The position numbers and the translations under genes were made by a program. From IMG/VR virus record IMGVR_UViG_3300045988_020086: a stretch of DNA of 50,115 nucleotides. One strand, written 5' to 3'. The DNA comes from a virus. A model generated the notes under the pieces. The model did no database searches, had not been told where the DNA came from, and saw nothing but the letters and a program-made list of their open reading frames with translations. Of this stretch, positions 1 to 50,115 are shown one piece after another (positions within the stretch are counted from its first letter, which is position 1; every line of letters starts with the position of its first letter).

Positions 1-141
1 ATTTCCGAACGTCCATCTTGTAAGCCAGTTTACCACAGATCGGGGGTGATAGTCAAGCGGATACCCCAGCGGGGCCGCACCGCTCAAAGCGGCCCCGCCC
101 CACTACCCCGGCAGCCCGCCGGGGCAAACCTGAAAAGCAAA
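1..141. repeat. Direct terminal repeat (assembly overlap of a circular or terminally redundant genome)
   Basis: nt 1-141 are identical to 49975-50115, giving a unit length of 49,974 bp. Confidence 0.95.
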
Positions 142-503: not shown

Positions 504-618
504 CCCCCGCCGGACACCTTAGCAGGGCCGCACCGTAAAGCGACCCCGCCCCACTACCCCGGCAGCCGCCGGGAGATCATCCCGAACACCAACCACAACA
601 CGAAAAGGAGCAAGTACC
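504..618 (+). repeat. Early-operon intergenic module, copy 1
   Basis: CGGACAC..AGCAGGGCCGCACCG-AAAGCG.CCCC hairpin, CCCGGCAGCCGCCGGG hairpin, CACGAAA at 599, AAAAGGAG-N8-ATG. Confidence 0.85.
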
Positions 619-1662
619 ATGAAAGGCATGAGCAATAATCAGATCATCCTCAGCGAGGCCGAGAAGCTGGCCCCCGCCACCCTGCACGCCATCGCCACCG
701 CACACCACACCGCCGCCCAGATCGAAGCCCTGGCCGCTCAGATCACCGTGACTGAGGACGACGGCACCCAGCACCCCGGCACCACCCACGACGCGGAGAT
801 CATGTTGGCAGCCAGCGAGCTGCACACCTTCGACTACTGGAAGAAGGAAGGCAAGAGCGTCAAGCTCCACGAAAAGGCACTGATTGAATGCTACTTGTGG
901 AAGTACACCACGAAACCCAGCAAGGCCCAGCGGGAAGCGGCAGAGGCCGAAGGCAAGGAAGCTGCCCCCGATCCGCATTACTACCCGACAAAATCCCACC
1001 TGTTCAGCTGCCTGCAGGTGCAGGACAGCAAGCCCGCCCCCGCTGGCCGGTTCAGCTCCACCGCTGAGATCATCGCCTATAACAAGAAGCTGGCAGCCGA
1101 ACGCAAGGCCGCCGCAAAAGCAGCAGCAGAGCAGGCCGACACAAAAAACGCGCTGGACGTTCTCAAGCAGACGGAATGCAAGGCAAAGGCCGCTTTTCTG
1201 GCCGTGCCTGAAACCGACCGCAAAGCGCAGGCCGAAGCCCTCAGCGCGTGGCGCAAAGCCCGGCAGGATATAGCAGCCGCCGAGAAGCCCGCAGAGCCCA
1301 CCACGAAACCCGCCCCGGAGATCATCCCCGCCGGCGTGACGGACAAGAAGCCGGGCGGCTGGAAGAAGTGCAGCTTTTACGCTATCTGCACCACTCCGCA
1401 GAATCCCACCAACCACGCGGAGAAGCGGGACGGCTACACCGACGGCGTTTTCAACTACTACGCGCTCCACCTTGGCAAAGCCACGATCTGGTACGCCGTT
1501 CACCCTGCCTACGGTGTCAGCATCGGCCCCGGCCAGAACAGCCGGAGCGCAGCCAAAACCGCAGCGTTTGAACTTCTCGAATCCGTCGCAAAGATGGAGA
1601 AAACCCCCAGCGAACGCCTGAAGAACTGCGCCGCAATGGTCGCCGCCGCACAGAATGCGTGA
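619..1662 (+). CDS. Early protein of unknown function (347 aa)
   Basis: Strong RBS, long ORF, Ala/Lys-rich linker. The segment TFDYWKKEGKSVKLHEKA weakly recalls ArdC-N/DUF1738-type ssDNA-binding domains (unverified). Confidence 0.75.
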   Translation: MKGMSNNQIILSEAEKLAPATLHAIATAHHTAAQIEALAAQITVTEDDGTQHPGTTHDAEIMLAASELHTFDYWKKEGKSVKLHEKALIECYLWKYTTKPSKAQREAAEAEGKEAAPDPHYYPTKSHLFSCLQVQDSKPAPAGRFSSTAEIIAYNKKLAAERKAAAKAAAEQADTKNALDVLKQTECKAKAAFLAVPETDRKAQAEALSAWRKARQDIAAAEKPAEPTTKPAPEIIPAGVTDKKPGGWKKCSFYAICTTPQNPTNHAEKRDGYTDGVFNYYALHLGKATIWYAVHPAYGVSIGPGQNSRSAAKTAAFELLESVAKMEKTPSERLKNCAAMVAAAQNA

Positions 1663-1773
1663 ACACAACCCCGGACATCCCAGCAGGGCCGCACCGCCCA
1701 AAGCGGCCCCACCCCACTTCCCACCGGCAGCCCGCCGGGGGCATATCACGAAACATGAAAAGGAGTAAATACC
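1663..1773 (+). repeat. Early-operon intergenic module, copy 2
   Basis: Same two hairpins as copy 1, CACGAAA at 1747, AAAAGGAG-N8-ATG. Confidence 0.85.
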
Positions 1774-1956
1774 ATGAAAAAGTTTAACAACATCTTCGAG
1801 CAGATCAACGTGGAACTCCCCGCACTGTGGAAGATCCAGACCCTGCGCACCGAAATTCGGCTCAGCCCCTGCAAGGCCGCGGAACTTCAACCGCAGATCG
1901 ACGCGGCCCGGCTTACCGTCATCTGTGCCCGCCGCGGCTACCTGTACACCGCCTGA
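1774..1956 (+). CDS. Small early protein (60 aa)
   Basis: RBS AAAAGGAG-N8-ATG; flanked by modules on both sides. Confidence 0.6.
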   Translation: MKKFNNIFEQINVELPALWKIQTLRTEIRLSPCKAAELQPQIDAARLTVICARRGYLYTA

Positions 1957-2064
1957 CCCACCGCCGGACACTCTAGCAGGGTTGCACCGCCCAAAGCAGC
2001 CCCGCCCCATCGCCCCGGCAGCCCGCCGGGGAGCATACCACGAAACGAAAAGGAGATGCACACC
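1957..2064 (+). repeat. Early-operon intergenic module, copy 3
   Basis: Hairpin 1 is GGGTTGC(1979-1985)/GCAGCCC(1996-2002), i.e. changes on both arms that keep pairing. CACGAAA at 2039. Confidence 0.85.
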
Positions 2065-2637
2065 ATGACAGCATATCAACAGACCCACCAGCGCACCGCA
2101 TGGCTCCACTACGAGGGCAGCGACTACAACGGGCGGCAGATCGTCGTGGACGTGGCCGAGATCACCCCGGGCCGCTTCACCGTCGCCGCACTGGATGCCG
2201 AAGGGAACGAGATCGAGAGCGACGAGGTGGAAGACCTGGACACCGCCCGCCGCCTGTATGGGGAACTGTTCCGCCGCCTCACCGAGAAGCCCGCCACGAA
2301 ACCGCTTTCCGGCAAATACGCCAAGCTGCGGGATGACCTGCGGGCCGCGCTGGAAGCCGGACGCAACGCCGAACACGAAAACCCGGAAGACGGCGGCACC
2401 TGTAACTTTGATTCCGTCGCCCTCAGTCTTCCCCGCTGGCAGGCGGCAAAGGTGGAGCAGGCCGCCAAGGAAGCGGGCACGAGCTGCTTTTCTTGGGACC
2501 TGTTCGGGGGCCGTCGGTGGGTCTTCGGGCCGGACACCAGAGCGCAGGGCAACGCCCGCACACGAAACGCCGAAGCAATGACCCGGGCACTTGCCGGGAT
2601 GGGCTATCAGGCCATGGACTATTGCCAGATGGATTAA
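2065..2637 (+). CDS. Early protein of unknown function (190 aa)
   Basis: The start was moved to the second ATG (MTAYQQ), 9 nt after AAAAGGAG, because the track start at 2056 abuts the RBS. Acidic N-terminal half; C-terminal GTCNFDS..QGNARTRNAEAM segment. Confidence 0.7.
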   Translation: MTAYQQTHQRTAWLHYEGSDYNGRQIVVDVAEITPGRFTVAALDAEGNEIESDEVEDLDTARRLYGELFRRLTEKPATKPLSGKYAKLRDDLRAALEAGRNAEHENPEDGGTCNFDSVALSLPRWQAAKVEQAAKEAGTSCFSWDLFGGRRWVFGPDTRAQGNARTRNAEAMTRALAGMGYQAMDYCQMD

Positions 2638-2739
2638 ACGGACACCTTGACGGGCCGCACCGCAAAGCGACCCGATCCCACCGCCCCGGCAGCCCGCCGG
2701 GAGTATCACGAAATCCAACACGAAAAGGAGATACACGAA
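2638..2739 (+). repeat. Early-operon intergenic module, copy 4
   Basis: Same two hairpins; three CACGAAA copies (2707, 2719, 2734); AAAAGGAG-N9-ATG. Confidence 0.85.
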
Positions 2740-3675
2740 ATGCGTACTTACACCATCAACGAATCTGCCGCCCGCCTCTCTCACGAAATGCGGTCCTTCG
2801 ACGACTACGAGAAGGGCAGCGCAACCGCTGGCTACAATGCCGACGTTGCCGAGGCTGCCGCCATCCTGGAACGGGTCAAAGCCCTGTGCAGCACCGAGGC
2901 CCAGAAGGAACACGCCGAGTTTCTGTTTGACCGCTACGCCAAGACGCTGGCCGAAGCCATCAACCGAGACAACGAGATCGGCACCCGCTGCCCCAGCGTG
3001 ATGATCTGCGGGGCTGGCAACTTCCCGACCCGGAAGAAGGAGAAGCAGGTCAAAGCATGGGAAGCCAATCACGAAACCTTCCGCAAGGCGGAACACTATC
3101 TTGATCTGCTCAAGACCGCCCACACCCTCACCGTCAAGAGCAATGACCCCGAGGTGCTGGACTATCTCCGGGAGAAGCTGGCCGGGCTGGAAGCCGGGCA
3201 CGAAATGATGGTTTCCGCCAATGCCTATTACCGCAAAAACAAAACGCTGGACGGTTTCGATGGCATCCCCGCCGACACTATGGCATGGATCACGAAACCG
3301 AAGGTCTACCCCGCAGGCGGGCGGAACGGCGACGGGTCCCCGCTGCAGTTCCACGGCAAGCCCTTCCCGACCTACGCCCTCAGCAACAGCAACGCCAACA
3401 TCAAGCGGGTAAAGGAGCGGATCACGAAATTGGAAGCCGCCAAAGCCGCCGCCCCGGTGGAAGAAGAGCGCAGCGGCTACACCTACCGGGAAGACACCGA
3501 AGCCATGCGGGTGCAGCTGATCTTCGACGGCAAGCCCGATGACGAGACCCGCGAACTGTTGAAACGGAACGGTTTCCGCTGGTCTCCCCGCAACAGCGCA
3601 TGGCAGCGGCAGCTCACCGCAAACGGAAAGTATGCCGCACATCAGGTGATGGACGTTCTCGACGGCAACGTATAA
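2740..3675 (+). CDS. Early protein with a C-terminal GFRWSP module (311 aa)
   Basis: ATG lies after the RBS (the track start at 2647 is a TTG inside the module). The C-terminal segment LKRNGFRWSPRNSAWQRQL resembles the GF(R/K)W(S/A)P module of DUF3560-type proteins from mobile elements (recollection, unverified). Confidence 0.7.
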   Translation: MRTYTINESAARLSHEMRSFDDYEKGSATAGYNADVAEAAAILERVKALCSTEAQKEHAEFLFDRYAKTLAEAINRDNEIGTRCPSVMICGAGNFPTRKKEKQVKAWEANHETFRKAEHYLDLLKTAHTLTVKSNDPEVLDYLREKLAGLEAGHEMMVSANAYYRKNKTLDGFDGIPADTMAWITKPKVYPAGGRNGDGSPLQFHGKPFPTYALSNSNANIKRVKERITKLEAAKAAAPVEEERSGYTYREDTEAMRVQLIFDGKPDDETRELLKRNGFRWSPRNSAWQRQLTANGKYAAHQVMDVLDGNV

Positions 3676-3794
3676 CACGAAATCGGACACTCTGGCAGGG
3701 CAAGCACCGTAAAGCAGCCCCGCCCCACTACCCCGGCAGCCGCCGGGAGATCATCCCGAACACCAACCATAACACGAAAAGGAGCTGTCACGAA
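3676..3794 (+). repeat. Early-operon intergenic module, copy 5
   Basis: Near-identical to copy 1 over its 3' half; CACGAAA at 3676, 3773 and 3789. Confidence 0.85.
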
Positions 3795-12211: not shown

Positions 12212-12832
12212 TCAACCTTCCTGCTCGTCTTCATCGTTCCGCACCTGACAGGCAGGTGCGGATATGGGATTTTTGATCTTGGCGACGGGGCGGACACCAG
12301 CCTCACCCGAGGCGTTGTCGTAGGTGCAATCCCCGTTGCCGGTCGCGTGGGCGAAATAGGCTGCCGAGTTCGGCACCCGATTCTGGAGCCAGTACCATTC
12401 CCATCCGCCGTTCAAGCCCTGGGAAGCAATGCGATTCTTCCTCTGCTTCATCGGCTTCCATTGGCTCACGCTTTCGGGTTCATCTTCACCACACGGGTTT
12501 GAGCCGAAGATTTCCTTTTCCGTCGGCAGGCGCAGCAGGTCGCCGTTTTCAAAAGGCAACAACAGCTTCCTGATTTTCTGGGGGAAGCGGTCAAGGATTT
12601 CACCGTTCAGCTTCTTCCGCAGGTCGGAGGCATCCCAGCCGCCCGCATTGGTGTTCTGTGCGTTCATGCTGTATTCCTTTGCCAGGCAGTCCGCAAAACA
12701 GAAGATCATACCGTCGTTTTCTTCCTTGACGGCCAGCATCTCTACCTTTTCACCATCGGACAGCTTAAAGCGAATGACATCGCCTACCCGGAACAGGTCA
12801 ACCTTGATTTTCTCGGTTCTTCTTACTTTCAT
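12212..12832 (-). CDS. Second DGR target protein with a C-type-lectin-fold-like variable C-terminus (206 aa)
   Basis: C-terminus WYWLQNRVPNSAAYFAHATGNGDCTYDNASGEAGVRPVA aligns to the TR-encoded peptide. N-terminal part has W..S.LRKKLN-type motifs seen in Firmicutes DGR targets. No signal peptide. Confidence 0.85.
   Translation of the reverse strand: MKVRRTEKIKVDLFRVGDVIRFKLSDGEKVEMLAVKEENDGMIFCFADCLAKEYSMNAQNTNAGGWDASDLRKKLNGEILDRFPQKIRKLLLPFENGDLLRLPTEKEIFGSNPCGEDEPESVSQWKPMKQRKNRIASQGLNGGWEWYWLQNRVPNSAAYFAHATGNGDCTYDNASGEAGVRPVAKIKNPISAPACQVRNDEDEQEG
12239..12261 (-). promoter_or_regulatory. Hairpin downstream of VR2 (DGR target-recognition element candidate)
   Basis: CCGCACCTG-5 nt-CAGGTGCGG, 19 nt 3' of the GC-rich VR end. 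Confidence 0.6.
12281..12368 (-). repeat. DGR variable repeat 2 (VR2)
   Basis: 88 nt align to TR. All 9 mismatches fall at TR adenines on the coding strand. Confidence 0.9.
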
Positions 12833-20019: not shown

Positions 20020-21310
20020 TGATTTTTTGTGTATTTTAGCGCAACACAAACAGGCCGTCAAGTTTTGCTTCCTTGCAGCCTCTTTCATTCGTTCAGTTTT
20101 ACCAATCCTTTCTTCCCACCCCGCCTTTCCAGCTATGCGCTCGCTCTCTTATATAATGGTTACTTTACTTTTCGTTATGCGGTCAGCCCCAGTTCCCGCA
20201 GGCATTGGCGGAACATGGTCGCCGCACTCTTATACCCGTGAATCTTCCGGGGGTAGTTGTTGATCCAGTTCTCCGTAGCTGCGATTTCTTCCTGGGTCAC
20301 ATTGGCAAAGTTCGTTCCTTTGGGATGACGTCTGCGAATCATGCCATTCACATTCTCATTGCTGCCCCGCTCCCAAGAGGAATACGGGTGGCAGTAGTAC
20401 ACCTTCGTCCGCTGGCCGTCGATCAGGCAGGAACGCTCGATCTCGTCCGCCATTGCGAACTCGGTTCCGTTGTCCACAGTGATGCTCTTATATATAGTGC
20501 CGAACTTCTCTGCGCCAAGCTTCCGTTCTATGGCATCCAGTGCCCGCACGGTCGTTTCCGCACGGCGGTTCGGAACAAGGATGATCTTCTCATTCCTGGT
20601 CTTGCGCTCGGTCAGTACCAGCAATGCCGCGGTGCTTTTCTTTTTGCCGGAGTATACCGTGTCCATTTCCCAGTGTCCAAATTCTTCCCGGCTCTGGATT
20701 TCTTCCGGGCGTTTATCAATGCTTTCTCCTGCCGGCGCACGGGCAGGTTCCTTCTTCTTCACCTTTTTATATTCGTTCTTATGTACGCCATGCCTGGGCA
20801 AAGCTACCTGTGTCAGGTTCAGAAACACGCCTTTCTTGATGTAGCTGTAAATGGTAGGAACGGAGATGTGGGTCTTGAATGTCCGTCCTTCTTCCATTGC
20901 ATAGCCATACACTGCCGCCGGGGAGCAGTCTTTCTCTATAATAGTCTGTTCGATATAAGCTGCCAACTCATGGTCCTTTCCGATTTTAAGGTCCGGTCCT
21001 TTTTCTCGGAGGTTTGCTTGATACCTCTGTTCCGCTATATCTGGGCTGTACGTCGGGATTATCTCCCATGTTTTGCCGTCCAGCCTGTCATAGCTGCCCC
21101 GTTTTAGTTCCCGGTATACCGTCGAAGGATCAACACGCAACTTTTCCGCTATCTCTCGTGTCCTCATTCCTTCCTTTTTCCACTTCTCAATGCGAAGACG
21201 GTCCGTAAAGTTTAGGTGTTTGAACACTCTCACGCCCTGTTCCTCCTTTCAATTCTGGCGTTTCTTTGCATTTCAAGCGTAAAAGATACGATGTGCTGTT
21301 GTCAATATGC
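20020..21310 (-). mobile_element. IS30-family insertion sequence (ends approximate)
   Basis: Single transposase ORF in a lower-GC segment lying between two terminators. Terminal inverted repeats are only tentatively seen (near 20028-20045 and 21285-21300). Confidence 0.6.
20175..21233 (-). CDS. IS30-family transposase
   Basis: N-terminal HTH (REIAEKLRVDPSTVYRELKRG) plus DDE core (WEMDTV...VDNGTEF...NENVNGMIRR). Confidence 0.9.
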   Translation of the reverse strand: MRVFKHLNFTDRLRIEKWKKEGMRTREIAEKLRVDPSTVYRELKRGSYDRLDGKTWEIIPTYSPDIAEQRYQANLREKGPDLKIGKDHELAAYIEQTIIEKDCSPAAVYGYAMEEGRTFKTHISVPTIYSYIKKGVFLNLTQVALPRHGVHKNEYKKVKKKEPARAPAGESIDKRPEEIQSREEFGHWEMDTVYSGKKKSTAALLVLTERKTRNEKIILVPNRRAETTVRALDAIERKLGAEKFGTIYKSITVDNGTEFAMADEIERSCLIDGQRTKVYYCHPYSSWERGSNENVNGMIRRRHPKGTNFANVTQEEIAATENWINNYPRKIHGYKSAATMFRQCLRELGLTA

Positions 21311-21406: not shown

Positions 21407-21481
21407 AGATTGCCCCGCTTTTCCTACATCAATACCCCGCGTGGAACGCAGGGCTTCAGGAAAAGCAGAGCCGTGGTCTTA

Positions 21482-22887: not shown

Positions 22888-23241
22888 TTACATATCCTCC
22901 AGGTCAATATCGCTGTTCATGGCGAGGTAATCAAGCTGTGCCCGTACCCGCATTTTGAACAGTTCATCTTCGGACAGTTCCCGCAGGATGAACCACCACT
23001 TGCCATCCGGGTTATCCTCGGGCGGGGTAATCTGCACAAGCTCCGCGTTGTGCAGGGTGTCCGAGTAGGCGCACCCGGTCATATCGCCGTCACTGGCAGA
23101 AATATGCACCTCCGATAAATTGCCGTCGAAAATATCCGCCGTGATCTCAGTCTCCGACTGGAAGTTATTGCCGCCCAGCGTCAGGTTTTCAATCAGTGTG
23201 CCATCAGCCAGCGCAACCGTCCATGTCCGTGTTTCTTCCAT
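22888..23241 (-). CDS. Hypothetical tail-fiber-associated protein (117 aa)
   Basis: GGAAGGAG RBS. Sits in the position equivalent to XkdW, ahead of XkdX. Confidence 0.55.
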   Translation of the reverse strand: MEETRTWTVALADGTLIENLTLGGNNFQSETEITADIFDGNLSEVHISASDGDMTGCAYSDTLHNAELVQITPPEDNPDGKWWFILRELSEDELFKMRVRAQLDYLAMNSDIDLEDM

Positions 23242-24443
23242 GTTGGCTCCTTCCCGAACAAGTCCTTAAACAAGTTCGTCATATTGTGAATTTGCTTCCT
23301 GCTCATGTACTTGTAATTGGCGCAAATCCATGATTTGTAAGAATTTTCGATTTCCTCATAGGTCATTACTCCGGCATCCATTTTCCGCTTGTACGCTTTG
23401 AGCTTCCGTCGTTCTCTCGTGATGGCTTTTGGGTTGATCTTTCGGATAATCCGCCCATCTTCCTGCAAAGAATAAAGCACTTGCAAGTGGCGATACTGGC
23501 CGGACAATTTACAGATGTGGGTTTTCTTTTCGTTGATGATGATTCCCAACTTTTCTGCCCACTGCCTGACCCCGGCCATTACCTCTTGCAAATGCTCTTT
23601 GCTTTTGTCGATGATGTAGAAATCGTCCGAATATCTTCCATAGCCCTTCACTGCGCACACGATCTTGACGTAGTTATCAATGGGCACCGGGAGAAATATT
23701 CCTGTATTTTGTGAAACTTGGTTGCCTATATCTGCGCCCTTCCGCAGCATTTTCTCGCCCGTCAGGGCGGATGATGGAACGCCAATATTGAGCGTTGAAC
23801 GCACCTTTTCATGGTACATTTTCTCGATTTCCTCATCTGCGAAACGGGAAACATCCAATTCAAAAGTGCGGAATGCCAACCGCAGTTTGTCCATAACATC
23901 CGCCAGTTCTTCCGGGTCTTTGATTTCCCGCGCAAGATACTGGCTGAACTGGGCCAATGCGACTTCATGCACAATGTTGTCGTAGTAGCCGGAGAAGTCC
24001 GAGAATCCGATGTAACCTTCATTCGTGCCCTCCCGCTCATAGTATTTTCGCAGCTGGATTTCAAAGCGATGCCGATGAAACGCAACACCTTTTCCAACCT
24101 GTGAAGACGAATTGTCGTACTGCAAATATTTTTGAAGCAGCGGTGTGAGGTATTCGTCGCAGGTAATGTGGTTCACCGCCTTGTCTGCGGTTGCTGCACT
24201 CGTGATATACCGTGCGTGACCTCTTTCCTTGATGCCAAATTTCAAGCCCGGCTCAGGCTTATATGTGCCGTCCTCCATGGCTTTCTGAATATGCGCAGTT
24301 TCGAGCAGATGATTTATCTCGTATAACTGCGTTTTATATTTGAACATCGACGCTTTCATTGCTTTGGTTCCTGCTTCATGGATATAATTTGCATCTGTGT
24401 ATTTACTCATATTTCCCTGAAATAAACTGTACAATAGCTCCAT
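23193..24443 (-). CDS. DGR reverse transcriptase
   Basis: RT motifs include the DGR-typical IGNQVSQ (I/LGxxxSQ) and YSDD (GRYSDDFYII). Lies immediately 3' of TR. Confidence 0.95.
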   Translation of the reverse strand: MELLYSLFQGNMSKYTDANYIHEAGTKAMKASMFKYKTQLYEINHLLETAHIQKAMEDGTYKPEPGLKFGIKERGHARYITSAATADKAVNHITCDEYLTPLLQKYLQYDNSSSQVGKGVAFHRHRFEIQLRKYYEREGTNEGYIGFSDFSGYYDNIVHEVALAQFSQYLAREIKDPEELADVMDKLRLAFRTFELDVSRFADEEIEKMYHEKVRSTLNIGVPSSALTGEKMLRKGADIGNQVSQNTGIFLPVPIDNYVKIVCAVKGYGRYSDDFYIIDKSKEHLQEVMAGVRQWAEKLGIIINEKKTHICKLSGQYRHLQVLYSLQEDGRIIRKINPKAITRERRKLKAYKRKMDAGVMTYEEIENSYKSWICANYKYMSRKQIHNMTNLFKDLFGKEPTWKKHGHGRLRWLMAH

Positions 24444-24560
24444 CGGTCGTAACCGGGAACGTCACAGTTAGTATTTATCGCAGATTTCCTACGAAAGGAT
24501 GACCTTTCCTTTCACAGAGCCGCACCGGGTCTTGCCCTTTGTGTGGTTGTGAAATCCAAA

Positions 24561-24660
24561 AGCCCGGCGACGGGGCGGACACCAGCCTCATTCGAGGCGT
24601 TGTTGTAGTTGCAATTCCCGTTGTTGTTCGCGTTGGCGAAATAGGCTGCCGAGACAACGT
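24561..24660 (-). repeat. DGR template repeat (TR)
   Basis: 100 nt homologous to VR1 and VR2. The coding strand is rich in AAC/AAT codons (NVVSAAYFANANNNGNCNYNNASNEAGVRPVAG). Confidence 0.95.
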
Positions 24661-24683
24661 ACAAAAGTCACCCTATTGTGTTG

Positions 24684-25070
24684 TTATTTTCCTTCCATCT
24701 GTTTGAAACGCTTTGCATCTGATTTCCGCAGAGCTTTAATTTTGTTCACCAGTTCCTCAATTTTCAGAGCCAGCTTTGTGAATTTGTTAAAATCTGCGGG
24801 CAATGTTTCCGCAACATATTGCAGCTCATCCATCAGCATCCAGCAGGCGGCAATGGCCTTGTCGAGTTCCAGCCGTCGCGCGTCCAATTCCAGCTGGCAG
24901 CTCGGCCAGATGGAGTTTGCCGCACGGAGGTGGAGCGGAATGTCGCGGGAAAGATCGTGCATCCGCTTCCGCTCCTGCTCGATCAGCCAAAGGTTGAAGT
25001 CTTGCTCCTGCTCCCGGATTTGTGCGACTGCCTTTTCTCGCTCCGGGCCTGCAGGGATGTACTTCGTCAT
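24684..25070 (-). CDS. Avd-like DGR accessory protein (128 aa, helical)
   Basis: Called on size, predicted helical character and its position between VR1 and TR (the mtd-avd-TR-rt order of BPP-1). Confidence 0.65.
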   Translation of the reverse strand: MTKYIPAGPEREKAVAQIREQEQDFNLWLIEQERKRMHDLSRDIPLHLRAANSIWPSCQLELDARRLELDKAIAACWMLMDELQYVAETLPADFNKFTKLALKIEELVNKIKALRKSDAKRFKQMEGK

Positions 25071-25238
25071 GGCTTCGAGGTGTTTTTCAAACTTTGTCCT
25101 GCTATACCCAAAGGTGCGGGCAAGTTCCGTCGTAACCTCTTTGCTGATCTCAAGCGCAAGGTGGTGCGCTTCCAGTCTGGAAGGTGTTCGTTTGTGTACT
25201 GGTACAGACGTTTTCTTTCACTTCCTGTCCTGCTCTCA

Positions 25239-25263
25239 ATCCCACGGTACAAGCCCGTGGGAT
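25239..25263 (-). promoter_or_regulatory. Hairpin downstream of VR1 (DGR target-recognition element candidate)
   Basis: ATCCCACGG-7 nt-CCGTGGGAT, 21 nt 3' of the GC-rich VR end. Confidence 0.6.
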
Positions 25264-25269
25264 GTTCGA

Positions 25270-26598
25270 TCAGCCGATCAGCCCGGCGACGGGGCGGACA
25301 CCAGCCTCATACGAGGCGTAGTAGTAGTAGCAACGCCCGCCGCCGCCCGCGTCGGCGAAATAGGCTGCCGAGACAACGTCTCGCAGCCAGCACCAATAAC
25401 TACTGGTGAAGCTCAACCACGGTGCCAGCCGGAACAACGGCAGTTGGGATTTGGAGATCGTGTAGTTGTTCGGGATGTTGGTGCCGTCAGAAGCGGGTGC
25501 AAAAATGTGGCTGCCATACATCATGTTCTCATTGGGAAGTTCCACCGTGCTGTCGTACCAGGTACCGCCGGACGGTCTGCCGTTGGACACGGCGTTCGTC
25601 AGATGCTCACGGTGGTTCAGGATATGGGCAGAGCCAAATGCAGCATTGAAGGTTGTTTTTGCCTGCGTCAGGCCATTCTTGTACATATCGCTGCCGACAT
25701 AGCCGCCCTCGGTCGTGTTGCTGGCGTTCATGTGGTAGGTATACAGGTGGTTGCGAGGGATGATGACAACATGGTGCGTGGTGCAGGCTGTGTCGCCGCA
25801 CTGATACCAGTAGTCAAAGCCAGCAACGAGGTAGTCTACGCCGCCGATCTGCCAGTAATCGCCGAGGTAAATGTCCTTGAACGTACCAGCTTTGATAGCC
25901 GCGGCCTGCTCTGCGGTCAGGCTGCTGCCAAGGTTCTTGCCGCGATAGATCATGTTGTGAGTGGCAGCATTGTCCATGATGCTGACAGTCTCACCGCCGC
26001 CGGGCATAACCAGCGGGCCAGTCAGCGTACCGCCGGACAGAGGCAGGTAGGTTTCCTGTGTTTCCTTTTGCAAATCCTCTTTGGCTTTGTCGATTTTGGT
26101 ATTGACCTGTGCGATCTGCTGGTTCACCATCTTCACGGACGCAACAGCGTTCGGGTCAACGGTCACGCTGATGTTGGCAAGGTTCGAGATTGCCATAATT
26201 CCGTACAATTCGATGGAAAAATCGCTGTTCTCCGTGTGGGACGGAATCTCCACGCCGCGGTCGTCCTGCATAATAATCAGCAGGGTTTCCTCGCCGTCTG
26301 CCAGCTTCGCATAGATACCGACCTGATGCAGGATGTACCCGGTTTCCAGATCGCCATTGGTGATCTGGATTTTGATGCGCTTGCCCACGTCGTCGTCGCT
26401 GCTGTCGGTTGCATCCTCGATGCCAAGGATTTTAAGGGTCTGCTTCTGCTCTTTCACGTCGGTCAGAGCTGCCAGCGATTCCGCCGCCGTGGTGCCAGAG
26501 CCGCCCACGGCTTTGGTGATCGTCATAGTCGCGCCGGAAAGCACTTCGGACATCATTTTCGTGCCGACGTTGGTGTACAGACTGTTGTTCCAACTCAT
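25270..26598 (-). CDS. Tail fiber / receptor-binding protein with DGR-diversified C-terminus
   Basis: Follows gpI. C-terminus WCWLRDVVSAAYFADAGGGGRCYYYYASYEAGVRPVAGLIG contains VR1. Confidence 0.9.
   Translation of the reverse strand: MSWNNSLYTNVGTKMMSEVLSGATMTITKAVGGSGTTAAESLAALTDVKEQKQTLKILGIEDATDSSDDDVGKRIKIQITNGDLETGYILHQVGIYAKLADGEETLLIIMQDDRGVEIPSHTENSDFSIELYGIMAISNLANISVTVDPNAVASVKMVNQQIAQVNTKIDKAKEDLQKETQETYLPLSGGTLTGPLVMPGGGETVSIMDNAATHNMIYRGKNLGSSLTAEQAAAIKAGTFKDIYLGDYWQIGGVDYLVAGFDYWYQCGDTACTTHHVVIIPRNHLYTYHMNASNTTEGGYVGSDMYKNGLTQAKTTFNAAFGSAHILNHREHLTNAVSNGRPSGGTWYDSTVELPNENMMYGSHIFAPASDGTNIPNNYTISKSQLPLFRLAPWLSFTSSYWCWLRDVVSAAYFADAGGGGRCYYYYASYEAGVRPVAGLIG
25280..25379 (-). repeat. 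DGR variable repeat 1 (VR1)
   Basis: 100 nt align to TR. All 13 mismatches fall at TR adenines. Confidence 0.95.
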
Positions 26599-49974: not shown

Positions 49975-50115
49975 ATTTCCGAACGTCCATCTTGTAAGCC
50001 AGTTTACCACAGATCGGGGGTGATAGTCAAGCGGATACCCCAGCGGGGCCGCACCGCTCAAAGCGGCCCCGCCCCACTACCCCGGCAGCCCGCCGGGGCA
50101 AACCTGAAAAGCAAA
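49975..50115. repeat. Direct terminal repeat (second copy)
   Basis: Identical to nt 1-141. Confidence 0.95.

What the first reader, a model, noticed from the sequence alone, without database searches (positions are those of the whole stretch)
23193..26598. Complete diversity-generating retroelement acting on the tail fiber
On the - strand the order is tail fiber with VR1 (25280-25379), Avd-like gene (24684-25070), TR (24561-24660), then a reverse transcriptase with the DGR-typical IGNQVSQ and YSDD motifs (23193-24443).

TR and VR1 are identical over 100 nt except at 13 positions. All 13 are adenines in TR. On the coding strand, TR AAC/AAT codons become GAC, GGC, CGT, TAC and TAT in VR1. This is the hallmark of DGR mutagenic retrohoming and implies programmable receptor-binding specificity.
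Basis: partly seen in the sequence, partly recalled or inferred. Interest (0 to 1): 0.7.

Follow-up and report, generated by a model that had tools for sequence, protein, structure and literature searches.

The report
Two-target phage diversity-generating retroelement
This is a genuine, complete diversity-generating retroelement in a gut-phage genome that rewrites the tip of the tail fibre and also a second small protein 12 kb away; it is a well-supported new member of an already known kind of system rather than a new kind.

Summary
TR (24561-24660) and VR1 (25280-25379) are 100-nt repeats with 13 mismatches, all at TR adenines (P=1.6e-10).

The interpretation, a DGR acting on the tail fibre, is supported, with corrections and additions:
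1. A second variable repeat, VR2 (12281-12368), lies in a 206-aa DUF6273 protein 12 kb away.
2. The RT starts at 24410, not 24443.
3. The accessory gene encodes about 175 aa, not 128. It has no sequence similarity to bAvd (PF22296) but folds like Avd-like helical bundles. In this clade it lacks a canonical start codon.
4. Both VRs, but not the TR, are followed by GATC-N3-4-[A/C]ATCCC plus a hairpin.
5. The 150-nt TR-RT spacer is a structured RNA with strong covariation. Its two duplexes bracket the TR in the same arrangement as the template:primer and cPRT-Stop duplexes of Bordetella phage BPP-1.

Across 38 related IMG/VR loci the TR is invariant. VR1 (11 of 12 distinct) and VR2 (20 of 21 distinct) vary almost only at TR-adenine sites, which shows activity in nature.

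The same cassette lineage occurs in at least 80 viral contigs and in Acutalibacter phage Fontainebleau. Two-target DUF6273 DGRs are already published for Faecalibacterium phages. Verdict: new member of a known kind, moderate interest.

The parts
25270..26598 (-). DGR target 1: tail fibre gene (442 aa). The N-terminal ~205 aa form a tail-fibre attachment/shaft region. The C-terminal ~240 aa form a DUF6273-related ligand-binding domain ending in VR1.
   Evidence: PHROG tail-fibre families match residues 1-205 (phrog_27381, 6.7e-47). The gene lies directly downstream of Tail_P2_I and Baseplate_J genes. The C-terminal domain is homologous to the DUF6273 small target (BLASTP 2e-12; hhalign 96.9%).
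25280..25379 (-). VR1, the variable repeat at the 3' end of the tail fibre gene
   Evidence: 100 nt with 13 mismatches to TR, all at TR adenines. 11 distinct versions occur among 12 related contigs, with 117 of 121 differences at TR-A sites.
25241..25271 (-). Candidate target-recognition element after VR1: GATCGAACATCCC motif (25271-25259) overlapping a 9-bp/7-nt-loop hairpin (25261-25241)
   Evidence: DNA fold z = -2.7. The same motif-plus-hairpin arrangement follows VR2 and both VRs of phage Fontainebleau, and is absent after the TRs.
24684..25211 (-). Accessory gene, a fold-level Avd analogue of about 175 aa. The only canonical start is ATG at 25070 (128 aa). The conserved, selected coding frame continues upstream to the TGA at 25220-25218. 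A GTG at 25221-25219 lies in the frame displaced by one nucleotide.
   Evidence: The homolog family is 171-201 aa with a conserved N-terminus. Substitutions in the N-terminal extension are 16 synonymous to 3 nonsynonymous. The AF2 model has pLDDT 81 and is all-helical. Best structural matches are 'Avd-like protein' (probability 1.0, TM 0.80) and the four-helix bundles 2gsc and 2rld. There is no hit to PF22296 bAvd, and hhalign to bAvd gives 0.1%.
24663..24674 (-). 5' strand of a long-range RNA duplex (AGGGUGACUUUU) lying 2 nt upstream of the TR. It is the candidate cPRT-Stop duplex strand.
   Evidence: It pairs with 24507-24496 in all lineage members. 93.9% of cells pair versus 47-61% in slid controls, and 7 of 12 pairs show compensatory changes.
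24561..24660 (-). TR, the template repeat (non-coding). It contains 9 AAY and 2 TAY codons in the VR frame.
   Evidence: The TR is invariant in 14 contigs except for one C-to-T change, which is mirrored in the cognate VR1s. No stop codon can arise from A-mutagenesis, and there are about 2.5e12 possible peptides.
24411..24560 (-). Spacer (Sp) RNA, a structured RNA 3' of the TR. P1 is 24554-24548/24516-24510 (candidate template:primer duplex, followed by GG at 24509-24508). The Stop-duplex 3' strand is 24507-24496. P2 is 24546-24541/24525-24520. P4 is 24494-24490/24482-24478. P5 is 24469-24463/24431-24425. P6 is 24460-24452/24447-24437.
   Evidence: RNAalifold on 24 lineage members gives 37 pairs, 22 with compensatory changes. 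98.3% of cells pair versus about 42% in slid controls, the covariation score is 0.44 versus <=0.09, and 0 of 500 shuffles reach the observed values. No Rfam family reaches threshold; the best is RT-2 at 17.3 bits against a gathering score of 40.
23193..24410 (-). DGR reverse transcriptase (405 aa from the conserved ATG at 24410; the maximal ORF starts at 24443)
   Evidence: Pfam RVT_1 6e-11 and PHROG RT 2e-35. It aligns to bRT with SDFSGYY/SDFSKFF, IGNQVSQ/IGSLTSQ and RYSDD/RYMDD; R78 and I239 align with bRT R74 and I181. The start codon is fixed by the family alignment and by an indel in relatives.
12212..12832 (-). DGR target 2: a small (206 aa) DUF6273 protein in the accessory/early region, among DNA methyltransferase genes
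   Evidence: Pfam DUF6273 at 26.6 bits (cut-off 23.5) and phrog_21980 at 2e-24. Neighbours are described. A homolog with its own VR sits between PolI and a helicase in phage Fontainebleau.
12281..12368 (-). VR2, a second variable repeat matching TR 24566-24653
   Evidence: 88 nt with 9 mismatches, all at TR adenines, in the same reading frame as VR1. 20 distinct versions occur among 21 contigs, with 200 of 212 differences at TR-A sites.
12239..12278 (-). Candidate target-recognition element after VR2: GATCAAAAATCCC (12278-12266) and a 10-bp/5-nt-loop hairpin (12261-12239)
   Evidence: DNA fold z = -3.3, with 0 of 200 shuffles folding as well.

Best explanation
The locus is a functional diversity-generating retroelement of a temperate, contractile-tailed gut phage. 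The genome is a 49,974-bp circular contig and is also found integrated in a bacterial chromosome.

Proposed mechanism:
1. A transcript spanning the 3' end of the accessory gene, the TR and the 150-nt spacer folds so that the spacer forms two duplexes bracketing the TR. P1 lies at the TR's 3' edge and positions a spacer adenosine (about 24510, followed by an invariant GG) as the cis-primer. A 12-bp duplex with the sequence just upstream of the TR acts as the stop.
2. The RT, together with the helical-bundle accessory protein, copies the TR into cDNA and misincorporates only opposite adenines.
3. The cDNA replaces the homologous VR at the 3' end of two genes: the tail fibre (VR1) and a small DUF6273 protein 12 kb away (VR2). 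Targeting uses the shared GC-rich 3' homology, a GATC...ATCCC motif and a hairpin, which are present after the VRs but not after the TR.
4. Because the adenines sit in AAY and TAY codons, up to about 2.5e12 peptides can be made per target without ever creating a stop codon.

Shown here: the repeat anatomy, adenine specificity, RT motifs, RNA structure by covariation, VR-flank elements, and natural VR hypervariation.

Inferred: cis-priming at the named adenosine, the stop function of the duplex, the RT-accessory complex, the tail fibre's role in receptor binding, and the role of the small target.
For: - TR/VR1: 13 of 13 mismatches at A, P=1.6e-10. TR/VR2: 9 of 9 at A.
- Population data: TR has 14 copies and 2 variants. 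VR1 has 11 of 12 distinct sequences, with 117 of 121 differences at A sites. VR2 has 20 of 21 distinct, with 200 of 212 at A sites. 21 of 23 A sites vary. Flanks stay 93-100% identical. A TR C49T variant in two contigs is copied into their VR1s.
- The RT is intact and aligns with bRT at all catalytic and DGR-signature motifs.
- The accessory protein is always syntenic with TR and RT in 80 of 80 related loci, where 726 of 770 TR/VR mismatches are at A.
- The accessory model matches Avd-like proteins.
- Hairpins follow the VRs only, and this is conserved in phage Fontainebleau.
- The spacer RNA structure and the long-range duplex are supported by covariation with controls. Their arrangement, a primer-strand duplex, then 2 nt, then the stop duplex, equals that seen by cryo-EM for BPP-1 (bioRxiv 10.1101/2023.10.23.563531).
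- Tail-fibre assignment.
- Codon design.
Against: - No read-level data for this genome, so activity in this particular phage at present is not shown.
- In the window's own clade (16 IMG/VR loci) the accessory gene has no canonical start codon for its conserved N-terminal helix. Expression of the full-length protein is therefore unexplained.
- The accessory protein has no detectable sequence homology to bAvd.
- The C-lectin-like fold of the target domain could not be confirmed here (model pLDDT 34). It rests on homology to DUF6273 and on published models (PMC10743442).
- Cultured relatives with two VRs (Lelie, CP11) showed no read-level DGR signal in one study (PMC11792537).
Confidence: 0.92

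Rival explanations
1. A decayed DGR. The cassette was active in the recent past and left A-biased VR differences, but the copy in this window is now inactive because the accessory gene lost its start codon.
For: The window clade lacks any ATG/GTG/TTG in frame upstream of the conserved N-terminal helix. Three near-identical genomes carry different 'repair' mutations: GTA to GTG in L039 and L040, and a 1-nt deletion in L041. Related two-VR Faecalibacterium prophages showed no read-level variation in culture (PMC11792537).
Against: All 12 VR1-bearing contigs of the clade share the start-less configuration yet carry 11 different VR1s, and their VRs show almost no non-A drift. The N-terminal extension is under strong purifying selection, 16 synonymous to 3 nonsynonymous. 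The RT, TR, Sp RNA and VR flank elements are intact and nearly invariant.
Confidence: 0.07
2. An ordinary duplicated segment (paralogous repeat) diverging by point mutation or gene conversion, next to an unrelated retron, group II intron or defence RT.
For: The NCBIfam scan gives weak sub-threshold hits to group II intron, retron and Drt RT models.
Against: All 13 and all 9 mismatches fall on TR adenines (P=1.6e-10). The directionality is constant, with an invariant TR and variable VRs, across dozens of contigs. All NCBIfam hits are far below their cut-offs (51 vs 300 bits, 20 vs 235 bits). The DGR-specific IGxxxSQ motif is present.
Confidence: 0.01

Closest known systems
Bordetella phage BPP-1 DGR (mtd-avd-TR-brt), the prototype
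   Same: - Same gene order, target(VR)-accessory-TR-Sp-RT.
- Adenine-specific mutagenesis.
- RT motifs align.
- A VR-only downstream hairpin and TR/VR flank asymmetry, comparable to IMH/IMH* (PMC3240598 listed).
- The spacer RNA forms a duplex at the TR 3' edge, then 2 nt, then a duplex with sequence upstream of the TR, as in the BPP-1 cryo-EM structure.
   Different: - The accessory protein is about 175 aa with an extra N-terminal helix and no sequence similarity to bAvd/PF22296.
- The RT has a ~45-50-aa insertion between motifs A and B.
- The target domain has no detectable similarity to Mtd.
- There are two DGR-templated targets. The 'VR2' annotated in the BPP-1 record is a different feature (a 330-nt repeat_region in bbp36); whether the TR templates it was not examined here.
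- The TR is 100 nt rather than 134 nt.
Acutalibacter phage Fontainebleau (ON453893), unannotated cassette
   Same: Closest deposited relative: RT 55%, accessory protein 51%, target C-domain 46% identity. TR-VR spacing is 715 nt versus 719 nt. It also has a second small DUF6273 target with a VR far from the TR, the same VR-flank motif and hairpins, the same TR-flank motif, and the same Sp RNA structure.
   Different: The phage has a different tail module (tape measure and minor tail proteins). Its proximal target is 311 aa and lacks the P2-type fibre N-terminus. Its accessory gene has a normal ATG start. In the record only the RT is named; the accessory gene and both targets are 'hypothetical'.
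Two-target DUF6273 DGRs of Faecalibacterium and gut phages (Toutatisvirus, Lelie, CP11, nd4/nd12)
   Same: One TR serves a proximal target and a remote small DUF6273 protein of unknown function, with the VR at the C-terminus of DUF6273. Population alignments show variation at both VRs (PMC11792537; PMC10743442; bioRxiv 10.1101/2024.10.15.618418).
   Different: The RTs are only ~25-29% identical. The layouts differ: Table S3 puts the VR ~1.9-2.0 kb from the TR, and in Toutatis the proximal target lies downstream of the RT. The proximal targets there are Hoc-like 'tentaclins' or other proteins, not a baseplate-attached tail fibre. The accessory family found here is absent from those phage records.
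Rfam RT-2 RNA (RF03077)
   Same: A sub-threshold match on the same strand covering the spacer between TR and RT (17.3 bits, E=0.064).
   Different: The score is well below the gathering threshold of 40 bits, and no lineage relative matches any Rfam family at E<=0.01.

Membership tests
Diversity-generating retroelement (DGR) | TR/VR repeat pair whose mismatches are restricted to adenines of the TR | tested here: met
   VR1 has 13 of 13 mismatches at A and VR2 has 9 of 9, P=1.6e-10. Across the lineage 726 of 770 are at A.
Diversity-generating retroelement (DGR) | Reverse transcriptase of the DGR type: intact catalytic YxDD plus the [I/L/V]GxxxSQ motif in place of the group II intron QG motif | tested here: met
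   IGNQVSQ and YSDD are present and align with bRT IGSLTSQ and YMDD. D149, D273 and D274 are conserved. Pfam RVT_1 is above its cut-off.
Diversity-generating retroelement (DGR) | Non-coding TR adjacent to the RT, and a VR at the 3' end of a protein-coding target in the same reading frame, with adenines in AAY codons | tested here: met
   The TR lies between the accessory gene and the RT. VR1 and VR2 end 8 and 69 nt before their stop codons. There are 9 AAY codons and no stop codon is possible.
Diversity-generating retroelement (DGR) | Target-recognition asymmetry: IMH-like sequence and hairpin/cruciform 3' of the VR but not of the TR | tested here: met
   Hairpins follow both VRs (z -2.7 and -3.3) and not the TR (z +0.2). 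The VR-only motif GATC-N3-4-[AC]ATCCC is conserved in Fontainebleau. Function is inferred by analogy with BPP-1.
Diversity-generating retroelement (DGR) | Unidirectional TR-to-VR information flow and ongoing diversification | tested here: met
   The TR is invariant while VR1 and VR2 are hypervariable at A sites across 38 IMG/VR loci. A TR C49T change is mirrored in the cognate VR1s. This is population-level evidence only; retrohoming itself is not testable with these tools.
Diversity-generating retroelement (DGR) | Structured RNA flanking the TR (template:primer duplex and stop duplex formed with the spacer) | tested here: met
   Covariation-supported helices with matching topology, compared with BPP-1. 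The priming chemistry is not testable here.
bAvd-like accessory variability determinant (Pfam PF22296) | Sequence membership in the family | tested here: not met
   bAvd itself scores 123 bits to PF22296. The window protein (128-aa or 175-aa form) and its homologs have no hit even at E<=10. hhalign of the family profile against bAvd gives probability 0.1%. NCBIfam, PHROGs and PDB sequence searches are negative.
bAvd-like accessory variability determinant (Pfam PF22296) | Small basic four-helix-bundle protein encoded immediately upstream of the TR | tested here: met
   The AF2 model has pLDDT 81 and is all-helical. The Foldseek top viral hit is 'Avd-like protein' (probability 1.0, TM 0.80). The best PDB superpositions are the four-helix bundles 2gsc and 2rld (TM 0.78-0.83), although E-values are only 0.09-0.3. 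pI is 9.0. The position upstream of the TR holds in 80 of 80 loci.
bAvd-like accessory variability determinant (Pfam PF22296) | Pentameric barrel that binds the RT and the Sp RNA | not testable with these tools
   No multimer prediction or binding assay was available.
DUF6273 / C-type-lectin-fold DGR target domain | Pfam DUF6273 match with the VR at its C-terminal end | tested here: met
   Target 2 scores 26.6 bits against a cut-off of 23.5. Target 1 has no direct Pfam hit but is homologous to target 2.
DUF6273 / C-type-lectin-fold DGR target domain | C-type-lectin-like fold displaying the VR residues on the surface | tested here: inconclusive
   The AF2 model of the tail-fibre C-domain failed (pLDDT 34). 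There is no PDB or Mtd sequence similarity. The fold is taken from published models of DUF6273 (PMC10743442).
Rfam RT-2 RNA (RF03077) | Score at or above the family gathering threshold | tested here: not met
   17.3 bits against 40. Relatives have no hit.
Retron / group II intron / defence-associated RTs | Score above the NCBIfam cut-off for those RT classes | tested here: not met
   group_II_RT_mat scores 51 bits against 300. Retron St85 scores 20 against 235. Drt3a scores 18.5 against 200.

The most novel reading that the evidence does not exclude
The small DUF6273 protein carrying VR2 may not be a virion receptor-binding protein. It may instead be an early-expressed, intracellular or released diversified binder, for example one aimed at variable host defence or surface-modification factors, or at superinfection control. 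In that case one TR would simultaneously diversify an adsorption protein and a non-structural effector.

Its conserved placement fits this reading. It sits among methyltransferase and regulator genes here, and between DNA polymerase I and a helicase in phage Fontainebleau. It lacks any signal peptide or tail-attachment domain. It is diversified as heavily as the tail fibre (20 of 21 distinct VR2s).

A second, smaller unexplained point: in this clade the accessory gene's conserved N-terminal helix has no canonical start codon. Production may depend on a +1 shift after GTG-AAA (AAA-G to AAG) or on non-canonical initiation, which could throttle DGR activity.
Probability: 0.15. Interest if true: 0.7.

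Novelty: new member of a known kind. Interest (0 to 1): 0.4.

Why it matters
The finding is a textbook-quality natural example of a phage DGR, and its activity is documented by population data rather than assumed. It extends three known themes.

1. It shows that the TR-bracketing RNA architecture seen by cryo-EM in Bordetella phage BPP-1 (primer duplex, 2 nt, stop duplex) is preserved by covariation in a Clostridia-phage lineage. This holds even though the accessory protein has diverged beyond sequence recognition from Avd. The result supports a conserved reverse-transcription mechanism and gives precise nucleotides to mutate.

2. It defines an unannotated Avd-analogue family. Among 50,697 deposited phage genomes it occurs only in phage Fontainebleau, as 'hypothetical', yet it is present in at least 80 IMG/VR contigs. 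DGR-finding tools that rely on Avd HMMs would probably miss it.

3. It adds a myovirus-type tail fibre to the set of proximal partners of the recurrent small, remote DUF6273 target, whose function is still unknown.

None of this changes the concept of what a DGR is.

Tried and rejected
- Megablast of the cassette and of 24 kb of the structural region against GenBank phages found nothing useful: no match, and a single 100-bp hit to FP_Toutatis.
- The genome-collection scan returned one short contig binned as Barnesiella, which is probably mis-binned. The host could therefore not be identified directly. L039 shows the phage integrated next to prfC-like and aldo-keto reductase genes in an NCBI assembly, but that record's organism name was not available.
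- I tested whether the window is one of the published Faecalibacterium phages (Lelie, CP11, Roos, Pioen, Lagaffe). It is not: the TR/VR lengths and spacings in Table S3 differ and the RT is only ~25% identical.
- Sequence routes from the accessory protein to Avd (Pfam, PHROGs, NCBIfam, PDB phmmer and hmmsearch, hhalign against bAvd) all failed.
- Structure prediction of the tail-fibre C-domain gave pLDDT 34, so no fold search was run on it. Profile searches against the PDB and Mtd were negative.
- A single-sequence fold of the TR-Sp region was uninformative (z -1.3). Only the comparative analysis resolved the structure.
- RNAalifold's small invariant GGA/UCC hairpin (P3) is probably superseded by the covarying long-range duplex that uses the same 3' nucleotides.
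- My first regex screen for RT motifs missed 32 loci. tblastn then showed that all 80 have the RT.

Full report
OBSERVATION. The repeat finder returns one outstanding direct repeat in the region, 24561-24660 versus 25280-25379, 100 nt at 87% identity. Read on the coding (-) strand, the 13 mismatches all have A in the 24561-24660 copy. Homology stops sharply on both sides. The chance that 13 mismatches all fall on the TR's 23 adenines is 1.6e-10.

A SECOND TARGET. Searching the conserved 3' end of the repeat across the window gave a third copy at about 12.3 kb. Aligned in register, window 12281-12368 matches TR 24566-24653 with 9 mismatches, all at TR adenines. This copy is in the same reading frame as VR1. 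It lies at the C-terminus of a 206-aa ORF (12212-12832, - strand). That ORF passes the Pfam threshold for DUF6273 and matches phrog_21980. The C-terminal half of the tail fibre is homologous to this small protein well beyond the VR (BLASTP 2e-12; hhalign 96.9%). The small target sits among DNA methyltransferase, regulator and unknown genes, not in the structural module.

CONTEXT. The window is a closed contig with an exact 141-bp terminal overlap, giving a unit of 49,974 bp. The proximal target follows Baseplate_J and Tail_P2_I genes, and its N-terminal 205 residues match tail-fibre PHROGs, so 'tail fibre' is justified. The same phage is found integrated in a 1.6-Mb NCBI contig next to host genes.

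IS IT ACTIVE? A scan of IMG/VR with the invariant 24-mer at the 3' end of the repeat returned 38 loci. After sorting the copies by type:
- The TR is represented by 14 copies with only 2 variants.
- VR1 has 12 copies with 11 distinct sequences, and 117 of 121 differences from the TR are at TR-adenine sites.
- VR2 has 21 copies with 20 distinct sequences, and 200 of 212 differences are at TR-adenine sites.
- 21 of the 23 adenine positions vary, while 300-nt flanks stay 93-100% identical.
- The single TR variant (C49T, in two contigs) is reproduced in the VR1 of exactly those contigs, which is direct evidence of TR-to-VR information flow.

REVERSE TRANSCRIPTASE. The ORF hits RVT_1 and the PHROG RT family. 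It aligns with Bordetella bRT at SDFSGYY/SDFSKFF, IGNQVSQ/IGSLTSQ and RYSDD/RYMDD. R78 and I239 align with bRT R74 and I181, residues that contact the incoming nucleotide in the BPP-1 structure. A ~45-50-aa insertion between motifs A and B is shared with the closest relative. Group II intron, retron and Drt models score far below their cut-offs. A family alignment shows a conserved ATG followed by ...GATGCAAAY, which corresponds to window 24410. A 1-nt indel in four relatives lies upstream of that ATG. The RT is therefore 24410-23193 (405 aa), not 24443-23193.

ACCESSORY PROTEIN. Its homologs are 171-201 aa and share a conserved N-terminal ~47 residues. In the window that extension is in frame and intact but has no ATG, GTG or TTG between a TGA (25220-25218) and the ATG at 25070. 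The same DNA is found in 13 IMG/VR contigs, and all 16 loci of this clade lack a canonical start. Every more distant member has ATG, GTG or TTG.

Substitutions in the extension are 16 synonymous to 3 nonsynonymous in its own frame, against 3:16 and 1:18 in the other frames. The extension is therefore translated. Three near-identical genomes carry different fixes: GTA to GTG in L039 and L040, and loss of one G so that GTG-AAA-AAA-ACG is in frame in L041. How the window-type gene is started remains unexplained. The options are a +1 shift at GTG-AAA-G, ACG or CTG initiation, or use of the truncated form.

An AlphaFold model of the 175-aa form is confident (pLDDT 81, pTM 0.70) and has five helices, with the extension providing the first. 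Foldseek's top hit in the viral library is an 'Avd-like protein' (probability 1.0, TM 0.80), and another ranks fourth. In the PDB the best superpositions are the four-helix bundles 2gsc and 2rld (TM 0.78-0.83), although E-values are weak. Authentic bAvd belongs to PF22296, which this protein does not hit. hhalign of the family profile against bAvd gives 0.1%. So it works like Avd in position and fold class, but it is not a member of the Avd sequence family.

TARGET-SITE ELEMENTS. Single-stranded DNA folding shows a strong hairpin 3' of VR1 (z -2.7) and of VR2 (z -3.3), and nothing after the TR (z +0.2). In phage Fontainebleau both VRs are likewise followed by GC-rich hairpins and the TR is not. 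All four VRs share GATC-N3-4-[A/C]ATCCC immediately before the hairpin. Both TRs instead continue with GGATTTCACAACC. This parallels the IMH/IMH* asymmetry and the hairpin requirement described for BPP-1 (PMC3240598, listed).

THE LINEAGE. Using the accessory-protein alignment, 80 IMG/VR loci were retrieved at 42-100% identity. All 80 have an RT homolog downstream. Nearly all loci with enough upstream sequence have a TR/VR pair offset by 701-798 nt. Across them, 726 of 770 mismatches are at TR adenines. The only deposited phage with this accessory family is Acutalibacter phage Fontainebleau, where it is 'hypothetical'. That phage also has a homolog of the small target, with its own VR (17 of 19 mismatches at A), between DNA polymerase I and a helicase about 25 kb from the TR. 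The dual-target design is therefore ancestral to this lineage.

THE RNA. The spacer between TR and RT is almost invariant among close relatives. Among 24 diverse lineage members it folds into a common structure of 37 pairs, 22 with compensatory changes. In the control analysis 98.3% of cells pair versus about 42% when partners are slid. The covariation score is 0.44 versus <=0.09, and no shuffle of 500 reaches the observed values.

Helix P1 (24554-24548 with 24516-24510) begins 7 nt after the end of TR/VR homology. Its 3' strand ends in an invariant GAAA followed by GG. Two nucleotides later, 24507-24496 pairs with 24674-24663, which lies 2 nt upstream of the TR. This 12-bp long-range duplex is found in every member and covaries: 93.9% paired versus 47-61% slid, and 7 of 12 pairs compensatory.

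The cryo-EM study of BPP-1 describes the same layout. A TR:Sp template:primer duplex ends at the priming Sp A56, followed by G57. Two nucleotides further on, an avd:Sp 'cPRT Stop' duplex forms with sequence upstream of the TR (bioRxiv 10.1101/2023.10.23.563531). I infer that the window's RNA uses the same cis-priming and stop logic. The inference is structural, not biochemical. No Rfam family covers this RNA; the best is RT-2 at 17.3 bits against a threshold of 40.

DIVERSITY. In the VR frame the TR carries 9 AAY, 2 TAY, one GCA and one GAG codon. Adenine substitution can create about 1.8e13 DNA and about 2.5e12 peptide variants and can never create a stop codon.

COMPARISON WITH THE LITERATURE. 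DGRs with one TR and two DUF6273 targets, one of them small, remote and of unknown function, are already described:
- Faecalibacterium phages Lelie and CP11, with population-level variation at both VRs (PMC11792537).
- Gut phages nd4 and nd12 (PMC10743442).
- Toutatisvirus, with a VR 17.5 kb from the TR (bioRxiv 10.1101/2024.10.15.618418).
The window is none of these. Their RTs are ~25-29% identical and their published coordinates differ. But it is the same kind of system. Those authors model DUF6273 as a C-type-lectin-like fold. I could not confirm this independently because my model of the tail-fibre C-domain failed (pLDDT 34).

VERDICT. This is a complete and, at population level, demonstrably active DGR. 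It is a new member of a known kind. Three points go beyond the routine: an Avd analogue that sequence models do not recognise and that lacks a canonical start codon in this clade; a covariation-supported DGR RNA architecture matching the BPP-1 structure; and the conserved small early-region target. Interest is moderate.

Noticed in passing
window 57-109, 510-560, 1671-1723, 1964-2016, 2638-2687, 3683-3734 (+ strand; 50031-50083 is the terminal-overlap copy of 57-109): Six distinct copies of the RAGATH-5 motif (Rfam RF02685, typed as ribozyme), all above the gathering score (63-72 bits) and all on the + strand. They lie in a 4-kb region with unusual composition (GC 62%, AT skew +0.31). Several sit immediately after + strand ORFs (619-1662, 2056-2637, 2647-3675), as if punctuating an operon. 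None of those ORFs, nor the long antisense ORF 577-3690, has any Pfam hit.
   Followed up: partly
window 1-141 and 49975-50115: Exact 141-bp terminal direct repeat, so the window is a circularly closed or terminally redundant contig with a unit length of 49,974 bp.
   Followed up: yes
window 21409-21474 (- strand): DUF3800-VIII RNA motif (RF03075) at 67.6 bits against a gathering score of 40.2, located between the IS30-like transposase gene and the holin genes.
   Followed up: no
window 20175-21233 (- strand); L039 13964-15022: An intact IS30-family transposase gene (352 aa; HTH_38 + rve; phrog_4646, 1.5e-124) sits just past the lysis module. In the integrated copy in L039 the same gene is split into 157-aa and 188-aa ORFs.
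   Followed up: partly
window 25209-25221 (- strand); L039, L040, L041: The accessory gene start region reads GTG-AAA-G-AA-AAC. The conserved N-terminal coding frame has no canonical start codon in the window or in any of the 16 IMG/VR loci of its clade. Three near-identical genomes carry independent changes that restore an in-frame GTG. Possible explanations are a +1 shift or non-canonical initiation.
   Followed up: partly
window 22888-23241 (- strand): A 117-aa ORF overlaps the RT's 3' end by 49 nt and has no family hit. It is conserved in the same position after the RT in phage Fontainebleau (38% identity, 2e-21), followed here by XkdX-like and holin genes in related loci. It may belong to the tail/lysis junction rather than to the DGR.
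   Followed up: partly
window 25273-25986 (- strand; tail fibre residues 205-442): The tail-fibre C-terminal domain belongs to a very large family in metagenomes (at least 7,998 90%-identity clusters at E<=1e-3, capped by the candidate limit). None of the 120 best hits listed carries a precomputed Pfam domain.
   Followed up: partly
L042 (CAVKKE010000125.1, 8.96-kb contig): The only hit in the species-representative genome collection is a short contig of a MAG labelled Barnesiella intestinihominis. The phage's gene content (XkdX, SPP1-type holin, M15 peptidase) and its closest relatives (Acutalibacter and Faecalibacterium phages) point to a Clostridia host, so the contig is probably mis-binned.
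   Followed up: no
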